64,000 bases of DNA from the IMG/VR virus record IMGVR_UViG_3300035698_018653, positions 62,907 through 126,906 of that record; one strand, written 5' to 3'. A program made the position numbers and the translations under genes. Each line of letters begins with the position of its first letter. Within the stretch, counting starts at the first letter, position 1. Positions 1 through 58,696 of the stretch are shown in pieces. The DNA is from a virus. A model generated the notes under the pieces. It searched no databases, was not told the origin of the DNA, and was given only the letters and a program-made list of their open reading frames with translations.

Positions 1-1605
1 CCAGTTCAGTCATTGGCTACGATAAAGTAAGCGCCATTCAGTCAAGAGGTTTGTCAATAAATACTGCATGATTGGCCTCCTTTGCATTATTAGTACGGTG
101 ACGGAAAGCGTCTGCGCCTCCCACATAAAAATTTTATAAAAAAACAGGAGAAATTAACATGAAATTATCTAGAGAAGAAAATTATAAGAGATATAAAAAG
201 GTAACAATGTTAGCGAGAATAATTAGGTCTGGTAGAAAATTGAGTAAAGATAATTTAAAGTTTTACGACAAAGAAGTAGAAAGAATAAGAAAACATAGGG
301 AAGAATCAGATAAGATTAAGTGGGAAAATTACGATAAAGACATAAAAGGGCTTTCAAAAAAGTTTAAAAGATTAGATAGGGCAATATCAAAAAATGACGC
401 ATTAGAGTCTATAAAAATAATACGAGATATACTAGTGATCGATGTAGATTTTGGAGGTTTTTGTGAAAGATGAACAGTTAGATAAAGCGATTAATTAATA
501 TTATAAATAATACAAAGGAGCGTATTAAATGAATCAAAACGACCTGATCAACATGAACAAAGAAATAATTTCTGTAATGAAGGATATGTTAACCTTTATA
601 AATCATAGATCAAATTGCCAGATGGTTATGTATGCTGCATTCGAAGGTCAGAAGTGCGATTGTGGATATGACAATCTCATTAATCAATTAAAGAAATTGA
701 AAAAGGAAGCCGAGTAATGAGCAGAACAAAATTTATTAAGATAGACTATACTTGCGATGTAGATGCACTAGGGCATAAAGAGTGTGATGAGAAATTAGAA
801 ACCGCTTGTAATACCTCATCGAAGTGTGACAAGGAAGCGAAAGAGAAAGGGTGGTATCTGGGATATAAGTATACTGGGGGCGAAAGAGTGCCGGTGACGT
901 TATGCCCTAAACATGCAAATTTAATTCATGTGCCCAAAAGAGTAAATAGAGAGGGAAATATATATCTTTATGAAGAGGGAGATTATCTTGCCAAGGTAAA
1001 GGTAATTGATGATCTAAGCAATAGAACATCTGACAATAACTTTTCTTTCTGTTTAAAGATTCTTGTTATCATAAGGCAAGTAAAAGATATGAGTCATTTG
1101 GGACCAGGAGATATGTTTAATGTAATAAAGAGAGTAAAAGACAGAAAGAGTTGGAAGCTTAAACCGATAAAAATATTTAGCAGAAGACAGAACCCGTCAA
1201 AGGAAGGTGCCATAATATGATAAAGGATATAATTTTTAATACGCTATATAATGAGCTTAGAGATATAGAGGCCAATAAAACATTATGTCTTTTGGCCTTA
1301 AAAGAAAAAGCTAAGTTAGCGGCAAAGAAAATAGAGATTGCTATTTGGAAGGAATTCTTTTCTGATAATATAGACGAAAGAATTAAAAGTCAGTTTGATG
1401 AATCATGGAGCTACCTTAACAAGCATAATGTACCCGCTCAAGTATTCTATCCGAAAGAGGGATATAAGAGTCTGACATTAAGGGAAAGGATTGAGTGGTT
1501 TATTATAACAGAAGGACTGGAAGAGCATCAGTTAGATATAAAAAACAAAAAAGACTTAAACAATTTAATTGATAAAGTAAGAAGCAAGATAAAGGAGAAT
1601 GAAAA

Positions 1606-3963: not shown

Positions 3964-4630
3964 TAACTGCCCAATAACACCTATAAATATTAGTTTATTA
4001 GCATATTCGAATAACCTATTATTATATTATAAGAATATTCTAATATTCGAATATTCGAATAACCTAATACAGAATGAGAATTAACAGATTAATAATCTCC
4101 CGTTTAAATAATTTGCCATATGTAAATAACAAACAAGGAAGTCTCTATATAATAAAAAGGAATAGTAATAGTAAATTAGATAACAAATAGTCAAGGAAAG
4201 ATTAATAAGCAAGAGAGAAAGGATAACAAAGAGATAGCAAGGGAAAGGTGAGTGATAAGAATAAAAGGAAAAGAGTTAAGAGAGTTCAAAGGGAAAGGAA
4301 GTAGGAGAATACAATAAGGAAAAGTATTAGGTAGAGAATCAAGAGAGGAAAGCATATAGGAGCGATAAGGAGCGATGTATGATAGTGATAGGGTATATAG
4401 AGCGGATAGGTATCCAGTGCATGAGAGTAGTATTAAATAAATAAAAGAATAAGTAAGAGAGTTAAGAGAAGATTTAAATAGCTGAGTAGTATTGGGATAG
4501 TAAGGAGCGGTATATGATAGGATATAAGGTGCAATGGTGGGATAGTACAGGGTGTATAGTAGAGTGTAGTATACTCTATGAACTCTTTATGCACCCTTTG
4601 CCCTGATCGTCAAATGTTGCCTATCGAGAC

Positions 4631-4995
4631 GCTAAAGAGACTATATGCTGAAACTTACGGAGCGACATATGTAAGACACTATTGATAACAACGTCCCGCC
4701 CCCATAACTCTATATAGATATAGACACTTATAGTTACTTCGTATAATAGTTATTACGTAAACTTAGCAAGGTAAGAATGATGTAAGTTACTATTAATATA
4801 TACACTTACGAGAGGTAAGGGACATTATTGAGACACACAAAGCAGTGCGCCGTCCGGTAAATATTACACATAAGAGGATTGAGAAACAAGTATTTAGGTA
4901 GAATCAAAAAACGCCGTAAGTCTAATAGAATGGATTTAAAACTTACAAAACTTACAAAAGTTACACGTCGTAAGTCCTTTATATATAAGTACTTA
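4631..4995. repeat. Cluster of about five imperfect palindromes spanning 25-26 bp from TAA to TTA
   Basis: 4633-4657, 4705-4730, 4783-4808, 4871-4896, 4971-4995; another at 54314-54338. Confidence 0.55.
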
Positions 4996-5174
4996 GGGGG
5001 GGGGTACCAAAAACGGATAGGGGTATATCAATTTTATATCGATTACTCACCTTCTCCCTACAAACTATTTTGACATTCAAAACACTTTTCCGGGGTGTTG
5101 TTGATAAAAGGAACCCCAATAAAAGGAATCCCCACAACAAAACAAAAAAATGTATGCCAAACAAAACAACTCAT

Positions 5175-5185
5175 CGTATATTATA
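5175..5185 (+). promoter_or_regulatory. Conserved promoter-like motif CGTATATTATA
   Basis: Identical intergenic copies at 9044, 11418 and 46870; variant at 60526; each precedes a gene start. Confidence 0.65.
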
Positions 5186-7277
5186 ATAAAGGAAGGAATA
5201 ATCAATAACAAAAAGGAGTTAATTATGAAAGCAATAATAGTAAAGGAAAATAAGTTTAATGATTTATTTGAAAGATTTAGAAATGAATTAGATTTAATAA
5301 AGCTGTCAAGAAAAGAAGATCCAAATTATGATATTGAAAGGGCAATAAACTATCATGTATGTAAATTAAAAACTAATCTAGTAAGTTCTGATTAAAGGAA
5401 CCCATAATGAAACTAGACAAAACACAAATAGGAAAGAAGTAAAAATACGGAAAGATAAAGTATTTGAATATGCTAAAATTAGATAAAGGAGTTGAATGAT
5501 ATGATAAAAATAATAACTACCTTTAGGGCTATAAAAGTAATTTGTATCTTTAGAGATAAGCAAGATTGTATAGATGGCAACAATGTAAGGAGTGATGGTT
5601 GTAATAAAAAATGCTGTGAAAAGAATTGCCCAATAATAAAGAATAGTGAAAAACTAGATAACCATACAGAAAAAATGATAGGTATAGGGCGTACAACCGG
5701 AATAAAGAATTATTTAAAGGAGCTTAAAAATGTTAAAGGAAATCAAAGAAATAGTTTTAAGTCATAGTAATTATAACGTAATGTATGATACGCTAATAGG
5801 TATAAACAATAATAGTAAATTTGGGGTATTAATTGCTTTAAATAATTTTAAGTTACCGGGAGAAGTAAAGAGCGAAATCTTAAATATAAAAGAAAGACAA
5901 CTGATACCGATTATAATTGAATATAATATTATAGAGATTTTCTGTGATGACGAATCAAATACTTCTGTCTGGGCAGAACTGTATCCTGCAGAAGTAGAAA
6001 TACTATTTGAAAACTGTAGCGTTATGATATAGGAAATAGTAATGAAAATCAAACTAGAAAATCAAGCAAGGAGAGAAATTTTAAAATCTAAGAATAAAGC
6101 CAGGCAAGCAATTGACTTGCTGGGCGGTATCATAGGGCATATAGCGCTGAATGATAAACTGACCTATACAGAATTTATAAGACACTACAGAGACAAATGG
6201 TATGAGATAGTAGAATAAAAACAAAAGGAGCAAGTAAAATGATAACCATATTTACCCGAGATGACCTAAAAGAAAATTGTAAAGATATTGCTACATCGGA
6301 AGTATGCACAGATCATTTAATGATTCATTGCCGAGAAACAATTAATGTATCTAGCCTTATAATTTTTATAAGCGAAGAAATAAAGATATTGAAAAATAGA
6401 TACGGTAGTGGAAGCGGACGGGTATTTAGCTTAAATGAATTTATAATTAATTTATTGAAATAGGGAGCCACTAAATGAAAGAGCCAACCAAAAAGCAACA
6501 CGATATTCTATATGAAGTTAATGAAAACTATTCCGTACAGATGATAAATAGTAATGAGAAGATAGATAAATATTGGGAGCTGGTAAGAATGGGGTATTTA
6601 AAAAATCTAGTGTCCTTGGGGCTGATGTATGATTGGAAATTTGTATTAAGCGAAGAGGGCGAAAAGTATATTAATCAATAGGAGCTAACAAATGTTCAAA
6701 GAAGACGAAGTAACTTTTTTAATAGCAAATACTTTTCAAAGATTAGATATTGGATTTAATTGTTATTATGAAAAAGTAAAAGATAAATATGATAGAATAG
6801 AAAAATATAAATTAATCAATAAAGAAAACGGAAGTATGATAAAAGGACTTGTAATACATATTAACAGTAGCTACAAGAATGACTTAAGAGATGTCTATCA
6901 AGTGGAGGGTTGGAATATAAAAAAAGTAATTCTTTTAGAGCGCTGTATTTTAGAGATAAAAACAAGATGTATATTAGATAATATAATGAATAGCAGATTT
7001 GGAAAAACTAAATGGGAACAATTTTCAGATAGGTAGGGGTATAATAAATGAACGTAATCCAATGCCCGAAGCATAAGGAAACGCCAACCTGTCCGTATAG
7101 GGACTGGAGCAATAAAGTGGGCTGCGGAGAAAGCCCCTGCCAGATGGCTACGGATATTGAAGATAAGGAATCTAAGCCCCTCCATGATTATGGAAAGTGT
7201 CTCCACGGCATTTCTATAATGGAAGATTGTAAAAAGTGCGGAAGAGATTATAAAAAATTTACTTAAAAGGAGCATAA

Positions 7278-10440: not shown

Positions 10441-11354
10441 TAATAACAATTTGTATTCTTTCTATGTTATTACTTCTCTATTTAAAATTAAGAATGTTTT
10501 GGTTTTATAAAGAGAACTGGAAAAGAGCAAGACAATATGGTAAATACTGGCGTCAATACAAATGTTGGAATAGAAAGAAAGTGCTTCTAAGATTTTGGAA
10601 TTGGAGTTATGATGAAATGTATTTTCCTAAAACATTTGAAGAATTAGAAGCGGAAGGATTATCAGATGCCTTCGGAGACAAAAAACAAAAAGCAAAATTA
10701 AAGTCATTTAGGAAAAAGAAAAAATGATTGGTCGTGGTGGAGTAGATTTAAAAGAGAAGTATAGTAAAGCTCAAAAGGAAATCTTTCCAATGCTTCTTAA
10801 GCTTGTGCCTAAAGAACTAAAGGACAGAGTGCATATCGACTTGTCATCTGGGTCATGGAATTATACCGGAACGATTTGTATCAAGGGTCGTATTAATGAA
10901 ATAAAAAATAGATGGAAATCAAAATACATTCGTATCTGGCAACTGGATAATCTTTATGATATAGCAAGACCGATAATGGAAGAGATAATTGAAGTTACAT
11001 TCGAGGGGTACCACGATGATATTATTAATAGAGGCGAGAGAAAAGAATGGGAAGAGAGGGTAAGAAAGAAGCTTGGAAATGATTTTAAAATAGGATACTG
11101 GGATTGGCGAGACGAATACAAGATTGATTATAAAGGTTTAAGCGCAAATGTAAGTAGAGATAAAAAGGAATATACTATTGGCATTTCAATTACTTGTCCG
11201 CTTAAATATTTAAGAAAGACATTTGATTACATATTAAAATTGAAAAAGTTTTTAGGAGATTATTATGAGAAATAAAAGGAGGTGTTGCGATGAAATAAAA
11301 CAAAACAATTTGTTATCCAAGCAAGCTCTCATAACTGAGAGTGTCAATCAAGGG

Positions 11355-11397
11355 AAAGTACTCTCTGATCTATTTTCGGTCAGGGAGTACTTTTTTA
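11355..11397 (+). terminator. Intrinsic terminator
   Basis: AAAGTACTCTCTGATC / GGTCAGGGAGTACTTT stem followed by T-run. Confidence 0.8.
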
Positions 11398-11417
11398 CAT
11401 CAAAACAATAATTATAT

Positions 11418-11428
11418 CGTATATTATA
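11418..11428 (+). promoter_or_regulatory. Promoter-like motif CGTATATTATA
   Basis: Directly after the terminator, 8 nt before ATG 11436 (possibly leaderless mRNA). Confidence 0.65.
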
Positions 11429-11872
11429 AGTAGAGATGAATAACTTTAAATATAAAACTTTAGAAATAAAATCTTTAATTAGAAAATATAATTCAAAGTT
11501 AAAAGAGTATCACGAAAAATACCCTTTAAAATTAAATGACACTACAGAAAGGATTCAAGAGAAAAAAGATGTAAGAGAAAATATTATAAAGGGGTTTCTA
11601 AAGGAGATAAAAGAACTTGGGGGATATCAAAGAGTTGTTACTGATTTAAAAATGAAGCACCCAAATACTTTAATTATAGATTATAATGAAAGCCAAAAAT
11701 GTTTTACTTACTTAAGAAGGTGCGATATTGTTTTTCCAAGGGGATCATTTACGCCAAGTAAAAGCTCTACTATAGAATTTTATAAGCACGGAGCCGATAA
11801 GATTAGAGATGAATATATATCAATAGAAAACAAATTAAACAAAATCAAAAATAAAATGCTGATAAGGAGTTA

Positions 11873-12454
11873 ATGATGAGAAATGTATTTGACCCTATTG
11901 ACAGATGTCAGTTAAGCGCAGAAGAGGTAAAGATAGTTGGAAATACACTCAAGAAATATACTTTAGAAAAATTAAATCTTATCTCTAGTAAACCAATGGT
12001 GACTAGAGAATTTCATCTTCAAGGTATATTTACTATTTGTATTATTCGATATAATATAGATATTTATGTTGGGGTATCCGTTTGGCATCCAAAGGAAGAT
12101 AAGTTTGATGCTCAAAGTGGTATGATGCGCAGCTTTATAAAAGCGGTTAAAATAATGATGGTTGAAAAACAACTATCAAAAAGATGTACGGCTATTCTTG
12201 ATGGAGGACAACAGTGCACTCACTCTATACCCTTAAAGGATATTAGAAATGATCCTGCGCTTGAAGGATATGATATTATAGATGAGTTATTTTGTAGATA
12301 TCATAGGGGCAGAAGGATGAGAAAGAAAAGGATTAAAAAAGTATATAAAAATATTTTAGATAAAAAGACCCTTAATAAAAAAATCGGTAAACTTAAAGAT
12401 ATAACTAATGAATTAAATAAAGTTTCTGCGCCCGTTTTATCAGATTCAAAATAA
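11873..12454 (+). CDS. Phage Gp49/66-like domain protein with C-terminal Cys/His motif
   Basis: VGVSVWHPKEDKFDAQSG...FIKA; CTA..C...FCRYH. Confidence 0.45.
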   Translation: MMRNVFDPIDRCQLSAEEVKIVGNTLKKYTLEKLNLISSKPMVTREFHLQGIFTICIIRYNIDIYVGVSVWHPKEDKFDAQSGMMRSFIKAVKIMMVEKQLSKRCTAILDGGQQCTHSIPLKDIRNDPALEGYDIIDELFCRYHRGRRMRKKRIKKVYKNILDKKTLNKKIGKLKDITNELNKVSAPVLSDSK

Positions 12455-12461
12455 GGCGCAC

Positions 12462-12531
12462 GGAGAGCGGGGTGTACTGTGTGAGTTGGTTCTCTAACTC
12501 CTTCCAACTGTGACAGATGGCCCCTCTCTCC
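12462..12531 (+). ncRNA. Candidate structured RNA hairpin with anti-RBS loop
   Basis: Nested stems GGAGAG/CTCTCC, GGGG/CCCC, CTGT/ACAG, AGTTGG/CCAACT; loop TTCTCTAACTCCTT. Confidence 0.6.
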
Positions 12532-12553
12532 TAAATTATAATTGGAGAATAAA

Positions 12554-12688
12554 ATGAATTGGACACCGGAATTAATTATTATATTGGTTGCTTGGGTTGC
12601 GTCAACTATAGTAGCAATATGGAGAAAAGATGCCGAGGTGTTGTGGCTTCCACTTATACTTACGGTATTGCTTTTTGTTTGTAAATAA
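12554..12688 (+). CDS. Unlisted 44-aa two-helix membrane protein
   Basis: GGAG RBS; MNWTPELIIILVAWVASTIVAIWRKDAEVLWLPLILTVLLFVCK. Confidence 0.65.
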   Translation: MNWTPELIIILVAWVASTIVAIWRKDAEVLWLPLILTVLLFVCK

Positions 12689-13014
12689 TGAAAATACCGT
12701 TTAAGAAATTAACGTTGTCCGACTATAGGCATTATGCTGCGAATCAAATGGAGATACCGGATTACAAGAATAGAAGACGGTATATATTTAAACATAGAAA
12801 GAAAAAGATAAGAAGCAGATATGCATTTCACTTTAGAGATAAAGATATAATAAGGATAGCTATATTTTTTCATGAAAAGAATAAAGACTTTTTTGAAAGG
12901 TATGGAATAATTTGTTACGATTTAAAATCATTCAAAAAACAATGGAGGTTTATTGGTATTGACAAAGAAATTTTAGAGGTTAAAAAGAGAAAGAAAAAAA
13001 CATTAATACTTTAA
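12688..13014 (+). CDS. Basic hypothetical protein ending KKKTLIL
   Basis: ORF track; TAATG coupling to the upstream gene. Confidence 0.65.
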   Translation: MKIPFKKLTLSDYRHYAANQMEIPDYKNRRRYIFKHRKKKIRSRYAFHFRDKDIIRIAIFFHEKNKDFFERYGIICYDLKSFKKQWRFIGIDKEILEVKKRKKKTLIL

Positions 13015-13025
13015 GGAGAAATAAA

Positions 13026-13289
13026 ATGAATACTGAATTTGAGTTTGAGTTTGGAGACAAAGTAAAACATATAGTTTTAGAATTTGAAGGTATTATTCGC
13101 GCAATGGATACTTGGTATACGGGGTGTAAAAGATGTGCTGTTCAGCGACCAATAAAAAAAGATGAAAGCGTACCTGATTTATATTGGGCCGAAGAGGTTG
13201 ATTTAAAGTTAATTAAAAAAAGTACAGACAAAATAGATGTTCCCAGAAGTGGTCCTCACGATAACGTTAAAAAACTTGGTGTAAAATAA
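13026..13289 (+). CDS. Small phage protein (possible SH3-like fold)
   Basis: FEFGDKVK..GII......TGC.R..VQ....W.EE..L...GP pattern. Confidence 0.5.
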   Translation: MNTEFEFEFGDKVKHIVLEFEGIIRAMDTWYTGCKRCAVQRPIKKDESVPDLYWAEEVDLKLIKKSTDKIDVPRSGPHDNVKKLGVK

Positions 13290-13993
13290 AATTTATATTT
13301 AATTTTAAGGAGAAATAAAATGGCAAAGAAAAAGAAAATTATTGAAGAAGAAGTAGAATCAAAGGAAGAGAAAAAGAAAGAGCCTATTCAGTATTGGATT
13401 CAGAATTTCTTTGTTGAGAACCCCAACCAAGGCGGCAAGAAAAAAGTATTGTCGATTAGAACTTTTGCGCCGATTATTATTGATAGCGAAACTAATACCA
13501 ATACAACTTTCAAAAAGAGAGTTGAAACCGTTATGGGTCTTAATGAGAACAATGAGCAAATAACAGAACCGAAACTGGAAGTTCTTAATGCAGCTGAAAA
13601 TGAAATCAATCTTGATAAGATGATTGTAAATACTATTTTGAAAAAGGTACGCTGATATGATCCCGACCAAAATAAACGATATAGAAATCTTAAATGAACA
13701 AGAGCGTGATGAGTTAAGGGAAGATCTAAAGAACCAAGACCTTGAATTTATAAAAGAGGGGGATTCAATACACGTTCTAATAGCCTCCCTTGATCCGGTT
13801 AAGGATATACTAGTAATTGATGAGAACGAAGCTCAGAACAGGTATATGCAGTATTGTGATAGTAAGAAAAACGAATGTGGTGACTTCTTTATATCCGTTA
13901 TATTATATCACGAATCAATCAAGATATTAAACAACGAACTAGGGTACAGTTTTAACGAAGATAAAAGGATATTCTTAAGGGGGTAAATAAAGC

Positions 13994-15709
13994 TTGGCCA
14001 GAAGTAACCAAGACAAAAGGTTGCTTCAGGAATATGACGATGACATAAGTGTTTTTTTGAAAAGAAGTCTTGTTAAAGGATTTGAAGACATTCCTGATCT
14101 CTCCTCCAGTATCTGGAAGGAGAAGCCTGTAAGTATAGAAGTCTTTTGCAGAGACTTTATAGGTGAAGAACTATATCCTTTGCAGCTTGAGGATGCAGAA
14201 AAATGCTATGGTAAGAATCCATTGGTGTGGGATGAAACATATGATTGGTTAATACTATTTATCGGTAAGGGTGGCGGTAAGGATAGAACTGTTGCCAAGC
14301 TCTTTGCTTACGGAGCCTATAAGATTGCTTGTTTAAAAAATCCTCATAAGTTCTTTGAGGGGATCGGCGCTGGCTCAATGATAGACTTTATTAATTTGAG
14401 CTTTAACGCACAGCAAGCAACTGATGTATTCTTTACAGAACTTAAGACTATTATTAAGATGGTTAAGAATCCACGAACCAAAAAGAATTGGTTTGAGGAA
14501 AGGGGTGCAGATCTTCGAGAGCATGAGGATATGCAAAAGAATAAAATTGTTCTTTTAAAAGGAGTGAGATGTCATTCGCTTAATAGTGAACATTATTCTG
14601 CTGAAGGATATAATGTTTTTATGGGTGTCGTTGATGAGAAAGGAGCTTTTAAAGCAGGGCAGGGAATAAAGGCTACAGATACATTAATGAATTGTATGAA
14701 AAGTAGGTTTCCAAAATGTGGAAAAGTAATTGATATTAGCAAGATGTATCACCATAATGATGATATGGATATAGCGTATAAAGAAACCAAGGGAATGGAC
14801 AACGTTTATCGAATAAGGAGAAAGAGCTGGGAGTATAATTTAAAAATTAAAAAAGAAAATTTTGCAATGCAGTATTCAAGAAATAAGTATAAAGCAATGC
14901 AAGATTTTGAATGCGAAGGTGGCGCACTTGGTGGCGATGCAGTATCAGACAAACTCTCTATAGACGAATGTTTTAATAATGAAAATTGGAACAAGAATCC
15001 GGTTAAAGGTAATCTTTCTTTTACCAGAAATCTGTTTCAACTTAGATTTCATGATTGGTTTAAGGATGACGGAAAAAAACATACACTTCATATAGATTTA
15101 GCAAAAGGCAAGGAGAGCGGATGTGATGCCGGAATAGCAATGGGGCATTCAGAGTGGATGTTTCCGAAGTATACCAGAAAGAAAAACGATATACTAACTG
15201 AGGAAGAACTTAAATCTTTTGAGAAGCAACAAAAGATGGGTGTGGTAATAGACTTCTATATTCAATTGAGAGGCCCAGACAAGGGTGAGATTAGGATATC
15301 AGACGTAAGGAGGTTTGTAGTTGAGATACTGAAAAAAAGATTTGGATTTAACATTGTACTTGTGACCTATGATGGGTATGCTTCCGCAGAAAGTATTCAG
15401 GAATTTCCCAGAGAGGGAATACGTTCTGAGAAACGAAGCGTGGAAGATAATGATAGTCAGGAAACGCTGATCACCGATTTTATGGGAGAGCGTAGATTTA
15501 AGACTTATAGGAATGATGTCTGGCATCGTGAAGCACGAAGCCTTATAAGGGAAGTGGACACTGGAAGGATTAATCATCCTGAGCTTGATTATGAGAGGAG
15601 CATAGCAGAAAATAAAAATGCTGGCTCCGATGACGTTTGGAAAGCAACAGTTGGTGTAACCATGAACTGCATGGAGAAATTGAGACTTGGCGGCGGTATA
15701 GTCTTTTAA
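13994..15709 (+). CDS. terL: Terminase large subunit
   Basis: Walker A GKGGGKD, Walker B VVDE, nuclease-domain HIDLA, YDG and SDD; upstream of portal. Confidence 0.9.
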   Translation: MARSNQDKRLLQEYDDDISVFLKRSLVKGFEDIPDLSSSIWKEKPVSIEVFCRDFIGEELYPLQLEDAEKCYGKNPLVWDETYDWLILFIGKGGGKDRTVAKLFAYGAYKIACLKNPHKFFEGIGAGSMIDFINLSFNAQQATDVFFTELKTIIKMVKNPRTKKNWFEERGADLREHEDMQKNKIVLLKGVRCHSLNSEHYSAEGYNVFMGVVDEKGAFKAGQGIKATDTLMNCMKSRFPKCGKVIDISKMYHHNDDMDIAYKETKGMDNVYRIRRKSWEYNLKIKKENFAMQYSRNKYKAMQDFECEGGALGGDAVSDKLSIDECFNNENWNKNPVKGNLSFTRNLFQLRFHDWFKDDGKKHTLHIDLAKGKESGCDAGIAMGHSEWMFPKYTRKKNDILTEEELKSFEKQQKMGVVIDFYIQLRGPDKGEIRISDVRRFVVEILKKRFGFNIVLVTYDGYASAESIQEFPREGIRSEKRSVEDNDSQETLITDFMGERRFKTYRNDVWHREARSLIREVDTGRINHPELDYERSIAENKNAGSDDVWKATVGVTMNCMEKLRLGGGIVF

Positions 15710-15995: not shown

Positions 15996-16232
15996 ATGTC
16001 GTCAATAAATGATTCTATGAAGTTTTATACAGAAGGAAATCAGGGTGTACCGGTTAAAAATAGTAAGATTAAAGTAATAAATCATTATGGCAAATCTGTT
16101 TCTGGTCTCTGTGTTGCTCATGATCTTCATGTGCTTAAGCTTATGGGTGACGATGGCGAACCTATGATTATTCCGTATACAGGAGTATTTTGTATTAAAC
16201 CCTTTAGTGAAAAAAAGAAAAAAGGTAAGTGA
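15996..16232 (+). CDS. Sm/Hfq-fold small protein
   Basis: SIND..., G-x4-G-x5-D-xxV-xxL spacing as in Hfq Sm1, Sm2-like strand ending in P; YKH not conserved. Confidence 0.5.
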   Translation: MSSINDSMKFYTEGNQGVPVKNSKIKVINHYGKSVSGLCVAHDLHVLKLMGDDGEPMIIPYTGVFCIKPFSEKKKKGK

Positions 16233-32320: not shown

Positions 32321-35008
32321 ATGGCTCTTGAAACAGATCGCATTATAACAAGAATTATTGCTGACGCTAAAGGATATACTGCCGGTATAAATAAGGCAGT
32401 ACGTGGAACTAAAAAGCTCGATAAAGATGTTAATAAGTTAAATGAATCTTTATTGAAGTTTGCGAAGATATCTGGACTTGCTGGTGCCGCTATTGCCGCC
32501 GGAGTTGGGGTTGGTGTTGCTATGTTTGCAAAGTTTGAAAGAAGTATGACAAATGTAGGAGCTGTACTTGGTCAGTCTTTTAGTCAGATGACAGAGCTTG
32601 CCGGGAAAGCGAGAGACTTAGGAAAAGCAACTGAGTTTACCGCAACTGAGGCTGGAGATGCTATGTACTTCTTAGCTTCTGCTGGTTTTGCAGTAAACGA
32701 TATTATGGATTCTGTTGATGCCACCCTTAAACTTGCTTCTGCAACTCAGTTTGATCTTGCCGAAACTACCAGAATAGTTGTTTCTAATATTAATGCTTTC
32801 GGTCTCGAAGCTTCCGATGCCGATAAAATAGCAAATGTATTTGCAGCTACTATCGCTGGCTCACAAGCAACTATGGAAAAGCTAGGAATAGCAATGGGAT
32901 TTTTAGCGCCTGTTGCAAATCAGCTGGGGATTTCTATAGAACAAACATCAGCTATGCTTGGAATACTTTTTAATAACGGCATAAGAGCGAGTACTGCTGG
33001 AACTCAGTTAAGGGCTGCTATGTCTAAGCTCCTTAAGCCTTCAAAAGAAGCGGTAGGAGTATTTAAGGATATGGGATTAACTATTGCAGAAATGAATCCC
33101 GAAAATGTTAGCTTTATTGATATTATAGGTAAGCTTGAAAAAGCTAATTTATCTGCTTCTCAGGCCGTTAAGATTTTTGGATTAAGAGCACAAACAGCTA
33201 TGACGATTCTTGCTAGAACAGGGCAAAGTGCCGTAGAGAACTTTACAAATAAAATAACCGGAACAAATAAAGCAGCGGAGGCAATGGGTATTCAGTTAGA
33301 TAGTTTGAAAGGAAGTTTCAATATTTTAAAGTCTGCTATTACTGAAGTATTTATTGCTATAGGAGAAGCAGTTGCACCTGCCTTTAGAAAGTTAATAGCT
33401 TTACTCACTGGATTGATGACAAAATTTAATGAGCTTCCTATTAATATGAAAAAATCTATTGTAGTTGCAACTGCAATAACGGGAGCAATCTTAGGGATAA
33501 CTGCCGTAGTGGCAGGGTTAATTGCAATTATGCCAATATTATTGGCTCATCTAACTGCATTTAATATTATGATGGGTGGAATTCCAATAATTATAGGTGC
33601 TGTAGTGGCAGGAATATTAGCATTAAGTGGAGTGTTCAAAAAGAAAACTAAAGCAATGCAAGATGACACAAAAGCAACAGAAGAGAACGTAAGAATAAAC
33701 GAAAGAGATACCGTAAATTTAATAAGATTAGCCGATAGTTATGATACACTTTCAAAAAAAGTAAATAAAACTGTTGATGAAAAATTAGAATTAAAAAGAG
33801 TAACTCAAGAACTCGCTAAAGAATATCCCGCCTTAGTGGATGAAATAAATGATGAAGGTGAAGCAAATAATTTATTGCTTCCTGATTTAAAAGAGATTGT
33901 TAAATTAAAAAAAGAACAACTTGAAATACAAAGGGAATTAACAAGAGATGAAGATAAGGAAGCCCTAGCTAGTCTAAGAAATAGGATAAAAACAACAGAG
34001 CAGGCTATAGATGGCTTTAATAAATCAAGAAAAGCAAAACAAACTGAAATGCAAGAAGCAAAGAAAGGAAACGATATTCTTTCTCAAGCTCTCGATGAGT
34101 TATCTGGTAAACAAGAGCAAATAGGATTTGAAGTTCAAGCTGAAATATTCTTAAGAGAAAGTCTTATTAAATTAAAAAAAGAAGAGGCAAGACTTGCTGA
34201 TATAATTGCCGGTAAAGAGCCCAAGGACGTAAGAAAAAAAACTTTCTTGGATGAAATGGGTGGAGTAAAAAGAGGGAAAGCGTTTCCGATAGAATCTGAA
34301 TTTATAGACATAACAGAAGAGATGGGAAGAAGAACTGGTGTTATAAAAAAGATTCATGAAATTACCAATAAGGAGTTAGAGGCAAATAATGCTGCAAGAA
34401 GAAAAAGAGAAAAAGAAGCTGAAAAAAAGAACCTAAAAGATTTGGAAAATCAGTATAAAAGCACTTACAGTCTTATAGGAAATATAGTTGGTGGCCCACT
34501 TGATGGACTTATAACAGATATGCTTGAAGCAACTAAAGCTGGTGAAGATATATGGAAAAGTTTTATGAATAATCTTAAAGGTCAAATAATAAGTTTTATT
34601 GCAAGCTCTGCTGTTAAAACTTTTATAGGAATTGCCGCCAATGCTTTTACTGGTGGTGGACTTTCTGCTGGAAAAATATTAATGGGCGCTCTTGGTTTTG
34701 CTAAAGGCGGTATAGTTGGTGCGGCCGGCGGAATACCTATGGCCGCTAATGGATTGATCACAAACCGCATGATACCCGCTATAATAGGTGAAGCTGGTCC
34801 AGAGGCGGTTATTCCCCTTGATAGGATTCAACCCCTCTTGACAGAGGCCATGAAGAACGCAAGTAGAAGTACAGACAATAGCAGAAAGGTAGAAATACAT
34901 ATAGAGAAAGCAATGGTTGACGATGAGGATTTCTGGGATCAGACATACAGAGAAAAAATAAGTCCTGCTATGAGTAAATTTGATAGACTAACAGGGGCAG
35001 ATAAATGA
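32321..35008 (+). CDS. Tape measure protein (TP901-type core)
   Basis: FE..M..V.A, TEFTA.EA...M.FLA.AG, AGT.LR; TM-like segment; C-terminal FAKGG..IGEAGPEAVIPL. Confidence 0.92.
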   Translation: MALETDRIITRIIADAKGYTAGINKAVRGTKKLDKDVNKLNESLLKFAKISGLAGAAIAAGVGVGVAMFAKFERSMTNVGAVLGQSFSQMTELAGKARDLGKATEFTATEAGDAMYFLASAGFAVNDIMDSVDATLKLASATQFDLAETTRIVVSNINAFGLEASDADKIANVFAATIAGSQATMEKLGIAMGFLAPVANQLGISIEQTSAMLGILFNNGIRASTAGTQLRAAMSKLLKPSKEAVGVFKDMGLTIAEMNPENVSFIDIIGKLEKANLSASQAVKIFGLRAQTAMTILARTGQSAVENFTNKITGTNKAAEAMGIQLDSLKGSFNILKSAITEVFIAIGEAVAPAFRKLIALLTGLMTKFNELPINMKKSIVVATAITGAILGITAVVAGLIAIMPILLAHLTAFNIMMGGIPIIIGAVVAGILALSGVFKKKTKAMQDDTKATEENVRINERDTVNLIRLADSYDTLSKKVNKTVDEKLELKRVTQELAKEYPALVDEINDEGEANNLLLPDLKEIVKLKKEQLEIQRELTRDEDKEALASLRNRIKTTEQAIDGFNKSRKAKQTEMQEAKKGNDILSQALDELSGKQEQIGFEVQAEIFLRESLIKLKKEEARLADIIAGKEPKDVRKKTFLDEMGGVKRGKAFPIESEFIDITEEMGRRTGVIKKIHEITNKELEANNAARRKREKEAEKKNLKDLENQYKSTYSLIGNIVGGPLDGLITDMLEATKAGEDIWKSFMNNLKGQIISFIASSAVKTFIGIAANAFTGGGLSAGKILMGALGFAKGGIVGAAGGIPMAANGLITNRMIPAIIGEAGPEAVIPLDRIQPLLTEAMKNASRSTDNSRKVEIHIEKAMVDDEDFWDQTYREKISPAMSKFDRLTGADK

Positions 35009-46869: not shown

Positions 46870-46880
46870 CGTATATTATA
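46870..46880 (+). promoter_or_regulatory. Promoter-like motif CGTATATTATA
   Basis: At the boundary between structural and replication modules. Confidence 0.65.
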
Positions 46881-54273: not shown

Positions 54274-54391
54274 CGGTGATTTCAGGTACAATTTACGAAA
54301 ACTTATATGTTCATAAGTATAATAAAAACAGTAACTTATGAAAAGTTGTAAGTTTTTTTTTAAATTATTTTTAAAATATCTCATTTTTTCC

Positions 54392-54580
54392 TTTACAGTT
54401 AAACAAGAAATTGTTAATTTATATAATAGTTAAACGAAACGCTCTTTAAAAAATCGGTTCGGAAGTACGGCCAACCAAACGGCGCTGGGAAAACACCGAG
54501 AAAAAAAAAGAAATTAAAAAAGAGTTAGCTTTCTTTTTCTTATAGTGGCGCTTCTGAGAAATCAAGAGCGCTACAATAAG
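54392..54580 (+). promoter_or_regulatory. Putative early promoter and leader with boxA and GAAA-loop hairpin
   Basis: TATAAT at 54422; CGCTCTTTAAAAA at 54440-54452; hairpin ~54539-54580 with TGA-GAAA-TCA apex. Confidence 0.55.
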
Positions 54581-55289
54581 TAAACTAAATTATTCATTTT
54601 TAATAGGAGTTAGAAATGAGAATTAAAAGAGGGCTGTTCAAGGGCGCAAAGTTGGAAGAGGTTTATAAGTGTGATACAGGCGAATATAGAACTACTGACC
54701 CTTGCTTTTGTACCAGAAATCCCACTTTGCAAAGCTTACGCACTAGCAGAAAAACATGGTCAATTAGGTGGGACATAAAACACGACAGAATTGATACTAA
54801 AGATTTAATTGTAAGAATTCTTTATTATACGGCAAAGCGAACAAGAAAAAGTATGCGATATGAGGTTGATATAGTTACAACTTGGGAAAATTGCCTTACT
54901 ACTTTTACTAGTCATTTAATTTAATTAAAATATAAAGAGATTGCGTAAAATGTCCTTGGTAGGCAACAAGCGTTTGAAGATAGGACGAGGTTCGATTCCT
55001 CTACTTAAATATTGCGCTGGCGTAATCTTTTAAAATAAAGGAGTTAGAAATGAAAGAGTTAGAATGGAAATCGAAAGATGCGTATGAAATTGAAGCAAAA
55101 AGTAATAGATTTTTAGAGAAGTATAATATTGAATATTGTACTATAAGTTGTTTAAACACTTTAAGCATTATTGGTGGGAGTAATAATAAAAAATATATTG
55201 GACAATTTGAAAAATTAGTTAACGCTCAGCAAGTTGCAGGGATGATTGATAATGGATAATTAATTTAACCTTTTAAATAGGAGTTAAAG

Positions 55290-55586
55290 ATGAAAGTATC
55301 TGTCAGTATAATGGGTATGGATTGTACGAATAACGGAGTAACTTCCGGGAAAGAAAATGCTCTATTAATAGTTAATGAAGAGATTGATGAAAATCAGGAT
55401 TCGTTTGTTGGTGATATTCCGGTTTTAAAAATTGTTAGTGGGAGGGGCGGTAGAGAATATATAGCTGTTCCGGTTAAGGCTGGAAAAAATGAATACCCTA
55501 TGTTTGGTGGACAGTTTATTTATACTTCAGATTCAAGATTTCCTTTTTCTAATCCTATTCACGTTCATGATCGGTATGAAAAATAA
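55290..55586 (+). CDS. Small phage early-type protein
   Basis: DCTNNGVTS...MFGG.FIYTSDSRF....I.VHDRYE. Confidence 0.65.
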   Translation: MKVSVSIMGMDCTNNGVTSGKENALLIVNEEIDENQDSFVGDIPVLKIVSGRGGREYIAVPVKAGKNEYPMFGGQFIYTSDSRFPFSNPIHVHDRYEK

Positions 55587-55607
55587 ACCTTTAAAGGAGT
55601 TAGAAAA

Positions 55608-56123
55608 ATGAATAAACCAAATTTAAAGGATTATAAAGAATATAATTGTTGGTATGATGATACTTTAGTTTGGGATCAGTACGGATACTGGCATGAAAAC
55701 ACTAGCGCGAATGGTCCTGCTTGGTTTACTCCAGCGTTTATAAAAGAATCAAAGCAAATAGCAAAGAGTTTGATTGAGTCTGATATTCAATTATGGTATA
55801 AAACGAAAAAAGAAAAGAATGGAAAGTGGAGCGCAGAATGGATAACGTATGACAAAGCAAATAAATATATTTATTTTCAATGTGGTGTTAGTGAGTGCAC
55901 AAGCGAGAGCAGAGCAGAAGATTATGTAAGAGATCGTCACAGCACTCATAAGCGTCTTTATGGCGGCGTGATAGATGCGATGCTAGTATATAAGCGTACT
56001 GGGGTTGCTTGCTTACCGGACTGGAATACAAATAAAAGCGATAGTTTTGGATATAAAGACGGAGAGAAAAACGAAGTGCCGAGAGCAAGTGAAGTAAGAA
56101 AGAAAAAGGTTTTAATAGCCTAA
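55608..56123 (+). CDS. Hypothetical protein ending KKKVLIA
   Basis: AAGGAGTTAG RBS; ORF track. Confidence 0.7.
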   Translation: MNKPNLKDYKEYNCWYDDTLVWDQYGYWHENTSANGPAWFTPAFIKESKQIAKSLIESDIQLWYKTKKEKNGKWSAEWITYDKANKYIYFQCGVSECTSESRAEDYVRDRHSTHKRLYGGVIDAMLVYKRTGVACLPDWNTNKSDSFGYKDGEKNEVPRASEVRKKKVLIA

Positions 56124-56379
56124 AAAGGAGGAATAAATCAAAAACGTATTTTATACCAATTACGGGAATGAAGGAATTGAATTAAGTATAGATGGAAAGC
56201 TTTATTATTATCCTGTACGGAGATCATTAACCGATAAAGCAATTAAAATATTGGAAAAAGGAGGAACTTATAAAGCGGTAAACTATCTCAAAAAATTTCA
56301 CAAAGGAGTTGATAGAAGTAAGAAGCACTATAACGAAAAAGTTGTAAAAGAAATCTTAAATAAAATAAGGAGTTAGTTT

Positions 56380-56631
56380 ATGGAAAAACCAAAGTATACC
56401 CCAGGGCCATGGAGAGTAAGTGGAAATAAGGTAGATGGAAATGGCTATCATATAGTATCTGTTAATGGTTGTCGAACAACAGAGGGTATAGCAAACGCAA
56501 ACTTGATCGCAGCAGCTCCGGACTTACTGAAAACCTGTAAACAGTTACTAGATTATTATAATGGCGAAGCTAATATCAACGGTACTGCCCGTATTGCTAT
56601 GCTAACCGTAGCTATTGAAAAAGCAGAATAA
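56380..56631 (+). CDS. Small phage protein of the TPGPW...ANA.LIAAAPDLL type
   Basis: Recognisable motif; RBS; followed by terminator. Confidence 0.75.
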   Translation: MEKPKYTPGPWRVSGNKVDGNGYHIVSVNGCRTTEGIANANLIAAAPDLLKTCKQLLDYYNGEANINGTARIAMLTVAIEKAE

Positions 56632-56642
56632 ATAAATCAAAT

Positions 56643-56672
56643 AAAGAGGGGGTGTAAAAGCCCCCTCTTTTA
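56643..56672 (+). terminator. Intrinsic terminator (possibly bidirectional)
   Basis: AAAGAGGGGG / CCCCCTCTTT. Confidence 0.75.
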
Positions 56673-57177
56673 TAACCTCAAACTAAGGAGTTAGTAAAAT
56701 GGAATTTGACGATATTAAATTAATTGATTTAATTATACCAGACGATAAAGAAAGAATAATAAAAGAAATTAAAGAAATAAATAAAATGGACTGGGATGAA
56801 GTTTTTAAAAGAGTCAGAATAATTAATTTTATTATTTCAGTTATCAGATATTAAACAAAAATAAAATCTCAAAATAAGGAGCTACAAAATGAAATACGAT
56901 GCACTCGCCATACTGCAAGATATACTGATGATCGTAGGTACTATTCCGAAACTGGCCATGGACGAACTGAACGCCTGGAAAAAGAAGTATGATTTTGTAG
57001 GAATGAAAAATAAAGATATCCTCAAGCATAAGCTATATCTGAAAACCGTCACTTCCAATAATAAGTGGCACTGGAAGTTCAGCTTCAAAAACTTTTTAAT
57101 TATTTCCAGGGAATATTATCTCAATGCAAAAGTATTTCATGCAGAGAAAGTATTTTCCATTTTCTAAATGAAAATAT

Positions 57178-57253
57178 GCCCCTGTATCCTAACGAATAGG
57201 GAAACTGTCTTCTAAACAGTTACGTCTCGGTTTGAATCCGGGCAGGGGCACCA
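57178..57253 (+). tRNA. tRNA-Arg (anticodon TCT)
   Basis: Acceptor GCCCCTG/CAGGGGC + ACCA; anticodon arm ACTGT-CTTCTAA-ACAGT; T arm CTCGG-TTTGAAT-CCGGG. Confidence 0.9.
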
Positions 57254-57712
57254 TTTTAAAAAGGAGTTAAATAAATGTATATGAAATATATTGTAATAGA
57301 AATATTGGGACAAGAAAGAGTTTTTATTTTTCAAAAAGAAATACAGCATGGTGACCTTTGGCAAACACTAAGAGAAAATTATAATCCTCAAGAAGTAGGG
57401 TTAGTAAGCGCCGGACAGATTTTATATAAAAAGGAAAGAGGTTTTATTTGTACCGGCGAAAGTCTGACCTTAGAAATAAAGTCAAGAAAGGAAATAGATA
57501 CAGAATTATTAATGAAGCAATTTGAAATATAAAGGATAACAATAAAATATGAAACAAACTAAAATAACGAAACAGAAAGGGGCGCTACAAAGATTAGAGT
57601 TAAATAGAAAAAGAATGGAGGACAATATATATTGGGATGACGAATATAAAAAAAAATACTTTAAAAAAGTTGACAAGGAAATAGAAACCTTAAGGAATAA
57701 AATAGGAGTGTT

Positions 57713-57910
57713 ATGAACTTCTTAAAAAATCTTTTTAAAAGGAGAGATAAAGTAAAAAGAGTTTGCGATACAGATCCAGAGCTGGATAGATTATTAAAAA
57801 GGCATTGTGAAAAAATAAAGAGAAGAAAGATATTTGCTAATATAGGAAGGAATAGTAAGTGCCCGTGTTTATCTGGAAAAAAATATAAACACTGCTGCTT
57901 AAATAAATAA
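57713..57910 (+). CDS. SEC-C motif protein
   Basis: IGRNSKCPCLSGKKYKHCC. Confidence 0.85.
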   Translation: MNFLKNLFKRRDKVKRVCDTDPELDRLLKRHCEKIKRRKIFANIGRNSKCPCLSGKKYKHCCLNK

Positions 57911-57921
57911 AGGAGTTAGTT

Positions 57922-58266
57922 ATGAGTAAAGTATGGAAAATATTTTTGAGAAATAAGTGTAGTGAGATTGCAGGAAAAATTAAAGTTTTATTACTTTCAA
58001 TAATTGTTGCAATAGTTATTGGCGCTATACTAACTGTTATTTGGTTTTGTATTGGGTATGGAGTATATAAATTACTTCCTATGTTTTATGCCTGGCTAGG
58101 ACATCCAGCAGATTTTGAAAATTTAATGGGAACAGGTATTGGGCTTTCAATTCTTATATTAGGACCTTCTTTTTTGTCATATTATTTATTTTATGATTGG
58201 CCAAAACAATTTAAAGAATGGATTGCTGATAATTGGATTAAAGCCAAAAGAGAAGCATTAAAATAA
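57922..58266 (+). CDS. Membrane protein (two hydrophobic segments)
   Basis: Hydrophobic stretches; AAGGAGTTAG RBS. Confidence 0.65.
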   Translation: MSKVWKIFLRNKCSEIAGKIKVLLLSIIVAIVIGAILTVIWFCIGYGVYKLLPMFYAWLGHPADFENLMGTGIGLSILILGPSFLSYYLFYDWPKQFKEWIADNWIKAKREALK

Positions 58267-58696
58267 AGGAGCCATTATGATAAAGGGGTTAGAGTTTGCT
58301 GTTTATGTTATACTTGCTTTTTCTATTCTGTATTTAATAGGTAGATTAATTCAAGCTTATTTGATTTATAGAAAAAGAAAAAAGAGTTTGGTTAAAGTAG
58401 TTTGGCCGGATTGTTTTAATGGGTGTGAGGCCGTTGAGCACCTTGGCGTTGGGGAATGTGAAAGTATCTGTCCAGATAAATTTGATAAGGAGTTTAAATA
58501 ATGAAACCTCAAGATCACTGCGATAAAATTAGAAAGGAGTTTGAAGATAAAAGTAGGTATATTCCAGATAATATTGATGGTGTTGATTACGGTTATTATG
58601 CAATAGCATATGGCAAAAAAGTATTTGTAGATAGCTGTACAATGGCTTTATGGATAAAATATGCAAAAGTAAATAAGGTAAAAAAGGAGTTAATAT

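What the first reader, a model, noticed from the sequence alone, without database searches (positions are those of the whole stretch)
12462..12531. Intergenic hairpin whose loop is antisense to the shared RBS of a distant gene cluster
Seen: a GC-rich 70-nt nested hairpin with a 14-nt loop TTCTCTAACTCCTT (12490-12503), reverse complement AAGGAGTTAGAGAA. AAGGAGTTAG precedes starts at 55050, 55608 (13 of 14 loop positions complementary), 56380, 56699 and 57922; AGGAGTTAGA precedes 54616. The match extends beyond the generic SD core, and no start codon follows it on the minus strand. Inference: a phage sRNA made in a later operon that shuts off translation of a whole early cluster through a common RBS barcode. 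Caveat: the loop could instead pair in cis with GAGTTGG (12483-12489).
Basis: partly seen in the sequence, partly recalled or inferred. Interest (0 to 1): 0.8.

Follow-up and report, generated by a model that had tools for sequence, protein, structure and literature searches.

The report
Phage intergenic hairpin with anti-RBS loop
A real, very stable RNA hairpin sits between two genes of an uncultured salt-lake phage and shows a ribosome-binding-site-complementary loop, but nothing beyond that complementarity indicates it is a trans-acting regulator; it is most likely an ordinary element of its own messenger RNA.

Summary
Positions 12462-12531 fold into a 70-nt imperfect hairpin (-33.3 kcal/mol, z -4.2). 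It is the third most stable 80-nt window of the 126.9-kb genome, and its 14-nt loop stays unpaired (P >= 0.97). The loop's complement AAGGAGTTAG precedes five starts at 55-58 kb, and AGGAGTTAGA precedes a sixth.

Once the generic anti-SD core CTCCTT is fixed, random loops do as well in 1-5% of trials by exact 10-mer count and in 7-19% by duplex energy. The longest match (12 nt, 34370) lies inside a coding sequence. No promoter, T-run terminator or Rfam family defines an sRNA gene.

No relatives exist. The upstream gene is an ORFan, the best terminase relative is 55% identical, and four metagenome runs carry the identical sequence. No RNA data were found, so covariation and expression could not be tested.

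Best reading (0.4): a cis-acting intercistronic stem-loop for processing or stability in the packaging-gene transcript. The trans anti-RBS sRNA reading remains possible (about 0.1).

The parts
12462..12531 (+). 70-nt imperfect GC-rich hairpin: 21 standard pairs, one 1x1 and two 3x3 internal loops, 14-nt apical loop
   Evidence: Energy is -33.3 kcal/mol on the + strand and -28.4 on the minus strand. One U-G pair exists only on the + strand.
12490..12503 (+). Apical loop TTCTCTAACTCCTT carrying the anti-SD core CTCCTT
   Evidence: Unpaired probability 0.97-1.0. CTCCTT occurs only 7 times on the + strand of the 126.9-kb genome, 2 of them intergenic.
12455..12553 (+). 99-nt intergenic spacer holding the hairpin. 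No T-run follows the stem (TAAATTATAATT).
   Evidence: The terminator scan lists nothing here.
11873..12454 (+). Upstream gene, 193 aa, ORFan with a basic C-terminus. Its RBS AAGGAGTTA (11864-11872) matches 9 nt of the loop.
   Evidence: The duplex is -14.4 kcal/mol, rank 5 of 190 TIRs.
12554..12688 (+). Downstream gene, a 44-aa peptide with two hydrophobic segments. Its SD GGAGAA starts 12 nt after the hairpin.
   Evidence: Loop-SD pairing is only -7.9 kcal/mol, about the mean of all 190 TIRs (-7.8).
11419..11428 (+). Phage promoter-like motif cGTATATTATA, 1 of 9 intergenic + strand copies, just after a canonical terminator at about 11352-11398. It is the likely start of the unit that contains the hairpin.
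12578..12605 (-). Sigma-70-like TTGACG-16-TATAAT (11 of 12) on the minus strand inside the 44-aa gene. It would drive an antisense RNA across that gene's start and the hairpin.
   Evidence: There are 7 such minus-strand sites in 126.9 kb.
54605..57919 (+). Span of the six RBSs carrying AGGAGTTAG, before starts 54616, 55050, 55608, 56380, 56699 and 57922. These are the proposed targets.
34370..34381 (+). Longest match to the loop (12 nt, AAGGAGTTAGAG), in-frame coding sequence and not an RBS

Best explanation
The hairpin is a cis-acting intercistronic stem-loop of the + strand polycistronic mRNA. That mRNA probably starts at the phage promoter-like motif at 11419 and runs into the packaging and head genes (terminase at 13994).

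It is not a separate sRNA gene and not a canonical intrinsic terminator. Most likely it acts on its own transcript as a processing or stability determinant. As a long imperfect double-stranded stem, it could be cut by an RNase III-type enzyme or could block exonucleases. That would uncouple the levels of the upstream two-gene message (11436-12454) from the downstream message (44-aa gene through terminase).

On this reading the anti-SD-like loop is incidental, or acts only locally.

Shown: the structure, its stability, its intergenic position, the + strand bias, the exposed loop, and the lack of promoter or terminator signals. Inferred: the transcription unit and the processing or stability role.
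For: The hairpin is strongly and specifically stable: z -4.19 and 3rd of all 80-nt windows in the genome. It persists in context.

It lies in a 99-nt spacer between two + strand genes, in a genome where 190 of 212 crude gene calls are on the + strand.

The + strand fold is 4.9 kcal/mol better than the minus-strand fold, with a U-G pair present only on the + strand.

The genome's other stable intergenic hairpins have perfect stems, 5-9-nt loops and T-runs, for example at window 11352, 24390, 56643 and 61640. This one has a 14-nt loop, three internal loops and no T-run, so it is a different kind of element.

The nearest upstream promoter-like motif (11419, score 21.5) directly follows a canonical terminator. 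The sequence next to the hairpin scores -0.4, rank 320, so it is not a promoter of that class. No sigma-70-like site above 9 of 12 precedes the hairpin on the + strand.

Twenty-one pairs plus seven non-canonical positions span more than two helical turns. From recalled knowledge of T7, lambda and SP82 processing sites, that is the size class of RNase III substrates.
Against: There is no direct evidence of transcription, cleavage or RNA ends. No RNA runs were listed and there are no relatives, so conservation cannot be shown.

No second element of the same design occurs in this genome.

CTCCTT is rare on the + strand (7 in 126.9 kb). Finding it in an exposed 14-nt loop is unlikely by chance alone, roughly 5e-4 by my own arithmetic. 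A generic stability element does not explain that.

Six of the seven mismatched positions are like-with-like (G.G, U.U, A.A). This reading does not explain that either.
Confidence: 0.4

Rival explanations
1. The hairpin, released from or acting within the late mRNA, is a trans-acting anti-RBS RNA. Its loop pairs with the extended RBS AAGGAGTTAG(A) of a cluster of small genes at 54.6-57.9 kb and blocks their translation.
For: The loop is exposed. Seven of 190 TIRs carry a 10-nt exact complement and two carry 11 nt. The best duplexes are -15.9, -15.9 and -15.2 kcal/mol at 55050, 55608 and 54616. By exact 10-mer count only 1.0-4.8% of random loops containing CTCCTT do as well. Six of the 7 AGGAGTTAG RBSs lie in one 3.3-kb cluster.

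Unpaired C-rich loops that bind SD sequences are a known sRNA design in low-GC Gram-positives (PMC2790875, abstract and passages read). One weak contextual lead: the 78-aa protein at 15996-16232 resembles Hfq_1 clusters in the ESM Atlas (cosine 0.92, 193 of 256 features).
Against: By duplex energy the loop is not unusual (P 0.07-0.19). TTAG is simply the second commonest 4-mer after AAGGAG in this genome's RBSs (6 of 53; AAAT has 7). The longest match is coding sequence.

Eighteen TIRs, including genes outside the cluster (for example 5225, 10617 and 11873), share 8 nt or more. No promoter, terminator or Rfam family defines an sRNA. The early and late assignments are untested.

The Hfq lead got no support from Pfam at E <= 1, from phmmer against 1.84 billion proteins (3 hits, none Hfq-like), or from PDB sequences.
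Confidence: 0.1
2. A 3'-UTR anti-SD acting on its own message, as in S. aureus icaR. The loop pairs with the RBS of the gene just upstream (AAGGAGTTA at 11864-11872, about 600 nt away on the same mRNA). That would lower translation of the 193-aa protein and create a double-stranded cleavage site.
For: There are 9 contiguous complementary nucleotides. The duplex is -14.4 kcal/mol, rank 5 of 190 TIRs. Being on the same molecule raises the effective concentration. A precedent exists: the icaR 3'-UTR UCCCCUG pairs with its own SD and yields an RNase III substrate (PMC3868564, abstract read).
Against: A rank of 5 of 190 for one of two neighbours has about a 5% chance and was noticed after the fact. 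The match is mostly the generic SD. There are no relatives and no RNA data.
Confidence: 0.1
3. The functional RNA is on the minus strand. A roughly 125-nt antisense RNA starts at the TTGACG-16-TATAAT site (12605-12578), covers the start codon and SD of the 44-aa hydrophobic peptide gene, and ends with the hairpin. This would resemble the P22 sar RNA or a type I toxin-antitoxin pair.
For: This is the best sigma-70-like match of the 8-kb region (11 of 12). Only 7 such sites occur on the minus strand of 126.9 kb. The target is a 44-aa two-segment hydrophobic peptide. The RNA would be fully complementary to its SD and ATG.
Against: The -10 box arises from Ile codons (ATTATTATA), so it can be a by-product of coding sequence. 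No T-run directly follows the hairpin on the minus strand; there are 9 nt before TTATTTT. The minus-strand hairpin is weaker (-28.4), and the 133-nt antisense fold is not unusual (z -1.35). Promoter-like sites as a class are at the shuffle level (35 found, 33.7 expected).
Confidence: 0.08
4. The hairpin has no selected function. It is an inverted-repeat remnant, for example of a rearrangement or of foreign GC-rich DNA, and its loop merely resembles an inverted copy of the phage's common RBS.
For: It is a single copy with no family in the genome. It sits in an ORFan context and has no relatives. The loop read on the minus strand is exactly the genome's own purine-rich RBS style.
Against: The stability is extreme for this AT-rich genome. 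The sequence is identical in contigs of two independent runs covering it (X2, X3), though that only shows one population. The non-random like-with-like mismatches suggest constraint.
Confidence: 0.2
5. It is a DNA-level site, such as a protein-binding inverted repeat or a packaging or replication signal about 1.5 kb upstream of the large terminase gene.
For: It lies close to the packaging genes: the terminase large subunit at 13994-15709 (phrog_17415; PF27249 homologues).
Against: The arms differ at 8 of 28 positions and are separated by 14 bp, which is unlike typical operator or pac repeats. The G-U pair favours RNA. No repeats of the arms occur elsewhere.
Confidence: 0.05

Closest known systems
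C-rich-loop sRNAs of low-GC Gram-positive bacteria (S. aureus RsaE and other Rsa RNAs, RNAIII hairpins 7, 13 and 14)
   Same: An unpaired pyrimidine or C-rich motif in a hairpin loop is complementary to Shine-Dalgarno sequences of several mRNAs, and pairing would block initiation (PMC2790875, abstract and passages read).
   Different: Those are separate transcripts with a 5' hairpin and a classical terminator, are conserved across species, and have been detected experimentally. Here there is no promoter, terminator, conservation or RNA evidence. The motif is CUCCUU rather than UCCC.
icaR 3'-UTR / 5'-UTR interaction (S. aureus)
   Same: An anti-SD motif downstream of a coding region can pair with the SD of the same mRNA. 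The adjacent upstream gene here has a 9-nt match (PMC3868564, abstract read).
   Different: icaR has a roughly 390-nt 3'-UTR ending the transcript (recalled). Here the element is intercistronic, and the interaction is only predicted.
T4 RegB endoribonuclease system
   Same: A phage factor inactivates many early mRNAs through their GGAG Shine-Dalgarno sequence plus extra conserved neighbouring nucleotides. That is the same logic as the proposed 'RBS barcode' (PMC1702504 and PMC3014915; search listing and start of abstracts only).
   Different: RegB is a protein nuclease helped by ribosomal protein S1. The present proposal is an RNA, and no RegB homologue was looked for.
RNase III processing hairpins between phage cistrons (T7 R sites, lambda, SP82; recalled, not read here)
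   Same: A long imperfect intercistronic stem with internal loops, inside a polycistronic phage mRNA, without a T-run.
   Different: No sequence similarity was tested or is known. Cleavage is untested. The 14-nt loop is larger than usual.
Phage cis-antisense RNAs and type I toxin-antitoxin pairs (P22 sar, hok/sok, Bacillus prophage bsrG/SR4; recalled)
   Same: A candidate opposite-strand promoter would make an RNA complementary to the SD and start codon of a 44-aa hydrophobic peptide.
   Different: There is no terminator, no homology and no evidence of minus-strand transcription. The peptide has two hydrophobic segments and is of unknown function.

Membership tests
Trans-acting base-pairing sRNA (anti-SD loop type) | Own promoter or a defined processed 5' end | tested here: not met
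   No sigma-70-like site of 10 or more of 12 lies upstream on the + strand. The phage motif PWM scores -0.4 (rank 320) beside the hairpin, and the nearest true motif is about 1 kb upstream. Processing was not testable.
Trans-acting base-pairing sRNA (anti-SD loop type) | Intrinsic terminator at the 3' end | tested here: not met
   The stem is followed by TAAATTATAATT. The terminator scan lists nothing here.
Trans-acting base-pairing sRNA (anti-SD loop type) | Accessible seed complementary to the target RBSs | tested here: met
   Loop unpaired probability is 0.97-1.0. There are 10-11 nt exact complements in 7 of 190 TIRs. Duplexes reach -15.9 kcal/mol.
Trans-acting base-pairing sRNA (anti-SD loop type) | Complementarity beyond what a generic anti-SD gives | tested here: inconclusive
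   P is 0.010-0.048 by exact 10-mer count (20,000 random loops per null). P is 0.07-0.19 by duplex energy (400 per null).
Trans-acting base-pairing sRNA (anti-SD loop type) | Conservation or covariation in relatives | not testable with these tools
   No relatives of the locus were found. The runs hold the identical sequence.
Trans-acting base-pairing sRNA (anti-SD loop type) | A stable small RNA is detected | not testable with these tools
   No RNA run was listed.
Intrinsic (Rho-independent) terminator | GC-rich stem, short loop, then a T-run | tested here: not met
   The loop is 14 nt and no T-run follows on either strand. The genome's canonical terminators all have one.
RNase III-type intercistronic processing site | About 20 bp or more of imperfect double-stranded stem inside a polycistronic mRNA | tested here: met
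   There are 21 pairs plus 7 mismatched positions, between two + strand genes. Membership in the transcription unit is inferred.
RNase III-type intercistronic processing site | Cleavage by RNase III | not testable with these tools
   This needs an in vitro or in vivo assay.
Any Rfam family (including tRNA, riboswitches, ribozymes) | Covariance-model match | tested here: not met
   At gathering thresholds the only hit is tRNA at 57178. At E <= 10 over 12380-12620 the only hit is a chance mir-342 match (E 2.9, 13 bits against a 60-bit threshold). ARAGORN finds only tRNA-Arg.
cis-antisense RNA / type I toxin-antitoxin | Opposite-strand promoter overlapping the 5' end of a small hydrophobic-peptide gene | tested here: inconclusive
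   An 11 of 12 consensus match lies at 12605-12578, and the peptide is hydrophobic. But the match sits in Ile codons, there is no terminator and there are no RNA data.

The most novel reading that the evidence does not exclude
A lytic-phage mRNA-embedded or processed hairpin RNA uses a 14-nt anti-RBS loop to silence, in trans, a whole cluster of small genes that share the extended RBS AAGGAGTTAG. This would be an RNA counterpart of T4 RegB-type early-gene shut-off, possibly helped by a divergent phage Sm/Hfq-like protein encoded 3.5 kb downstream.
Probability: 0.1. Interest if true: 0.75.

Novelty: new member of a known kind. Interest (0 to 1): 0.3.

Why it matters
If the trans reading were true, it would show phages timing gene expression with an RNA that recognises a regulon-specific ribosome-binding site. 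That mechanism is so far known only for a protein (T4 RegB). As the evidence stands, the element is a singleton hairpin in an uncultured salt-lake phage with no relatives. Its likeliest role, shaping its own mRNA's processing or stability, is ordinary. The practical lesson concerns method: complementarity between a pyrimidine-rich loop and SD-type RBSs must be judged against a null that fixes the anti-SD core. Under that null, most of the apparent specificity disappears.

Tried and rejected
Rfam: no family matched. tRNA remnant: rejected.

Canonical terminator: rejected, because there is no T-run and the loop is 14 nt.

Promoter right after the hairpin: CTAAATTATA looked like the phage motif GTATATTATA (8 of 10), but the PWM score is -0.4, rank 320, so it was rejected.

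Cis pairing of the loop with the SD of the 44-aa gene: 8 bp and -7.9 kcal/mol, equal to the mean of all 190 TIRs (-7.8), so it is not notable.

A 13-codon GTG mini-ORF lies inside the hairpin (12472-12513). It was noted and not pursued.

Relatives:
- The 193-aa protein gave no confirmed relative in viral contigs (32 pattern matches, 0 confirmed).
- The exact 27-mer gave 0 matches.
- The terminase as a single sequence gave 0.
- The phage collection gave no match by blastn. By tblastn, terminase matches are all below 60% identity, the listed ones 25-28%.
- A terminase alignment gave 80 loci, but only the 109-aa neighbour has a weak homologue, in L003. None of the loci holds a comparable hairpin.
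- A metagenome scan with the stems fixed and the loop free gave 0 matches.
- The basal-stem pattern scan gave 124 matches in the fetched loci, all unrelated, mostly in flanks of 0.5-0.8 GC.

Sequencing runs: 9 DNA holders were listed, all salt-lake metagenomes, and no RNA holder was listed. Contigs of X1-X4 cover parts of 11900-13300 with no differences. Only X2 and X3 cover the hairpin.

A second minus-strand TTGACG-16-TATAAT next to the genome's most stable hairpin (genome 50369-50478) has a different layout and gave no family.

Hfq-like lead for 15996-16232:
- Pfam gave nothing at E <= 1.
- AlphaFold2 from the single sequence gave pLDDT 45, which is unusable.
- phmmer gave 3 hits: itself and two repeat proteins.
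- PDB sequences gave nothing relevant.
- The Atlas gave cosine 0.92 to Hfq_1 clusters, a lead only.

Atlas search for the 193-aa protein: nothing usable. Supplementary files of papers were not consulted.

Full report
**What is there**

The window is the second half of a 126,906-bp IMG/VR virus record: linear, 74% complete by CheckV, about 33% GC. By a crude gene call, 190 of 212 genes lie on the + strand.

Positions 12462-12531 lie in a 99-nt spacer. Upstream is a 193-aa ORFan gene (11873-12454). Downstream is a 44-aa gene (12554-12688) whose product has two hydrophobic segments. The large terminase gene follows at 13994 (phrog_17415; PF27249 homologues).

**The hairpin**

The 70 nt fold into 21 standard pairs, interrupted by a 1x1 and two 3x3 internal loops, and capped by a 14-nt loop. 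The energy is -33.3 kcal/mol and the MFE takes 0.80 of the ensemble. None of 200 shuffles folds as well (z -4.19). It is the third most stable 80-nt window of the whole genome. It survives in a 261-nt context, and its loop stays unpaired (0.97-1.0).

The + strand version is 4.9 kcal/mol more stable than the minus-strand version and has one U-G pair. That mildly favours a + strand RNA.

Reading the fold, six of the seven mismatched positions are like-with-like (G.G, U.U, A.A). I cannot explain this.

**The complementarity**

AAGGAGTTAG occurs seven times in the window. One copy is the loop itself, five are RBSs at 55050, 55608, 56380, 56699 and 57922, and one is internal at 34370. AGGAGTTAGA precedes 54616.

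Three additions change its weight:
- The longest match (12 nt, at 34370) is in-frame coding sequence.
- The gene directly upstream of the hairpin has a 9-nt match, AAGGAGTTA.
- 'GGAGTTA' is a common RBS flavour here. It occurs in 16 of 190 TIRs, 9 of them in the 54.6-58.7 kb cluster and 7 elsewhere.

**Is the match more than a generic anti-SD gives?**

Among 53 RBSs with AAGGAG, the next four bases are AAAT in 7 and TTAG in 6.

I kept CTCCTT fixed and randomised the other eight loop bases. Seven or more TIRs with a 10-nt exact complement arise in 1.0-2.1% of 20,000 trials. With the core placed anywhere in the loop, the figure is 3.0-4.8%.

With RNAduplex energies against all 190 TIRs, the observed values were 7 TIRs at -14 kcal/mol or better and a top-six mean of -15.2. 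Random loops reach these in 7-19% of 400 trials per null.

The 'barcode' is therefore suggestive at best, and it was noticed after the fact. The more striking fact is that CTCCTT, found only 7 times on the + strand of the genome, sits in an exposed loop at all.

**Is it a gene for an sRNA?**

- No Rfam family matches.
- No sigma-70-like site better than 9 of 12 precedes it on the + strand, and no T-run follows it.
- The genome's clear terminators have perfect stems, short loops and T-runs. This element is of another kind.
- A phage-specific motif, cGTATATTATA, occurs at nine intergenic + strand sites just upstream of genes. One is at 11419, right after a canonical terminator. The next one downstream in the window is at 46871.
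- The sequence beside the hairpin is not one of these motifs (score -0.4, rank 320).

The simplest reading is that the hairpin is an internal part of a long transcript that starts near 11430 and runs into the packaging and head genes.

**Relatives and expression**

No comparative test is possible:
- The 193-aa protein has only itself as a hit in 5.8 billion proteins.
- The best terminase relatives are 55% and 47% identical.
- Eighty terminase loci from IMG/VR share none of the hairpin's neighbours except a weak match to the 109-aa protein. They hold no comparable hairpin.
- Pattern scans of viral and metagenome contigs found nothing related.
- Nine DNA runs hold parts of the stretch, all labelled salt-lake metagenomes. 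The four laid show no differences, and two of them cover the hairpin.
- No RNA holder was listed. This says nothing about expression.

**Alternatives examined**

(a) Cis pairing with the downstream SD is only average (-7.9 against a mean of -7.8 kcal/mol).

(b) Pairing with the upstream gene's own RBS ranks 5th of 190 (-14.4 kcal/mol). This would resemble the icaR 3'-UTR mechanism (PMC3868564, abstract read).

(c) A minus-strand TTGACG-16-TATAAT (11 of 12) at 12605-12578 could drive an antisense RNA over the 44-aa gene's start and the hairpin. It is one of 7 such minus-strand sites in the genome. However, it lies in Ile codons, no terminator follows, and the minus-strand fold is weaker and unremarkable.

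(d) A DNA-level role, or no function at all, cannot be excluded.

**Context for the trans idea**

Unpaired C-rich loops that bind SD sequences are an established sRNA design in staphylococci (PMC2790875, abstract and passages read). T4 RegB inactivates early mRNAs through GGAG plus neighbouring conserved bases (PMC1702504; listing and start of abstract only).

The ESM Atlas lists Hfq_1 clusters as nearest (0.92). Pfam, phmmer against 1.84 billion proteins, PDB sequences and a single-sequence fold gave no support.

The ten cluster proteins have no known function. Their 'early' status is therefore a guess.

**Verdict**

The feature is real and the complementarity is real, but the regulatory inference is untested and statistically weak.

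- Best reading: a cis-acting intercistronic processing or stability stem-loop, 0.4.
- Trans anti-RBS RNA: about 0.1.
- icaR-like self-pairing: about 0.1.
- Antisense RNA: about 0.08.
- Remnant without function: about 0.2.
- DNA site: about 0.05.

Interest is 0.3. The element is a new member of a known kind.

Noticed in passing
window 5176, 9045, 11419, 46871, 60527; genome 827, 28032, 32354, 61818: A conserved motif (t/a)cGTATATTAT(a) occurs at nine intergenic + strand sites, 16-57 nt upstream of gene starts, often right after a terminator. It is probably a phage-specific (middle or late?) promoter class.
   Followed up: partly
window 15996-16232: The nearest ESM Atlas clusters of this 78-aa protein are Hfq_1 (PF21979) families (cosine 0.92, 193 of 256 features). 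Pfam, phmmer, PDB sequences and a single-sequence AlphaFold2 model (pLDDT 45) give no support. The Sm-like idea stays a lead.
   Followed up: partly
genome 50369-50478 (12.5 kb before the window): The most stable hairpin of the genome (-39.6 kcal/mol, 26 pairs with several G-U) lies inside the 5' end of a 266-aa gene. It is immediately downstream, in the minus sense, of another TTGACG-16-TATAAT site.
   Followed up: partly
window 3964-5224, and genome 61789-63064 (window -1117 to 158): Two stretches of about 1.26 kb have no + strand ORFs in an otherwise tightly packed + strand genome. At window 62-77 a minus-strand AAGGAGG-N6-ATG suggests at least one real minus-strand gene.
   Followed up: no
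window 56643-56694: A canonical terminator (GAGGGGG...CCCCCTC plus T-run) is followed by the RBS of 56699. There AAGGAGTTAG is embedded in a self-complementary CTAAGGAGTTAG mini-hairpin.
   Followed up: no
window 54925-55049 and 57178-57253; genome 55305, 58089, 58169, 58257-58357: tRNA-Arg(TCT) lies at 57178. Several further tRNA-like folds occur in the first half of the genome, and a T-arm-like fragment (GGTTCGATTCCTC) lies in the spacer before 55050.
   Followed up: no
window 11900-13300: The same sequence, without a single difference, is present at low depth (2-4x) in contigs of four runs from four studies, all labelled salt-lake metagenome.
   Followed up: yes
window 54274-54615: A 342-nt spacer with a hairpin plus T-run and AT-rich promoter-like sequence opens the cluster of small genes that share the AGGAGTTA(G/A) RBS. 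Many TIRs genome-wide also share an upstream CTTTTAAA(A) element.
   Followed up: no
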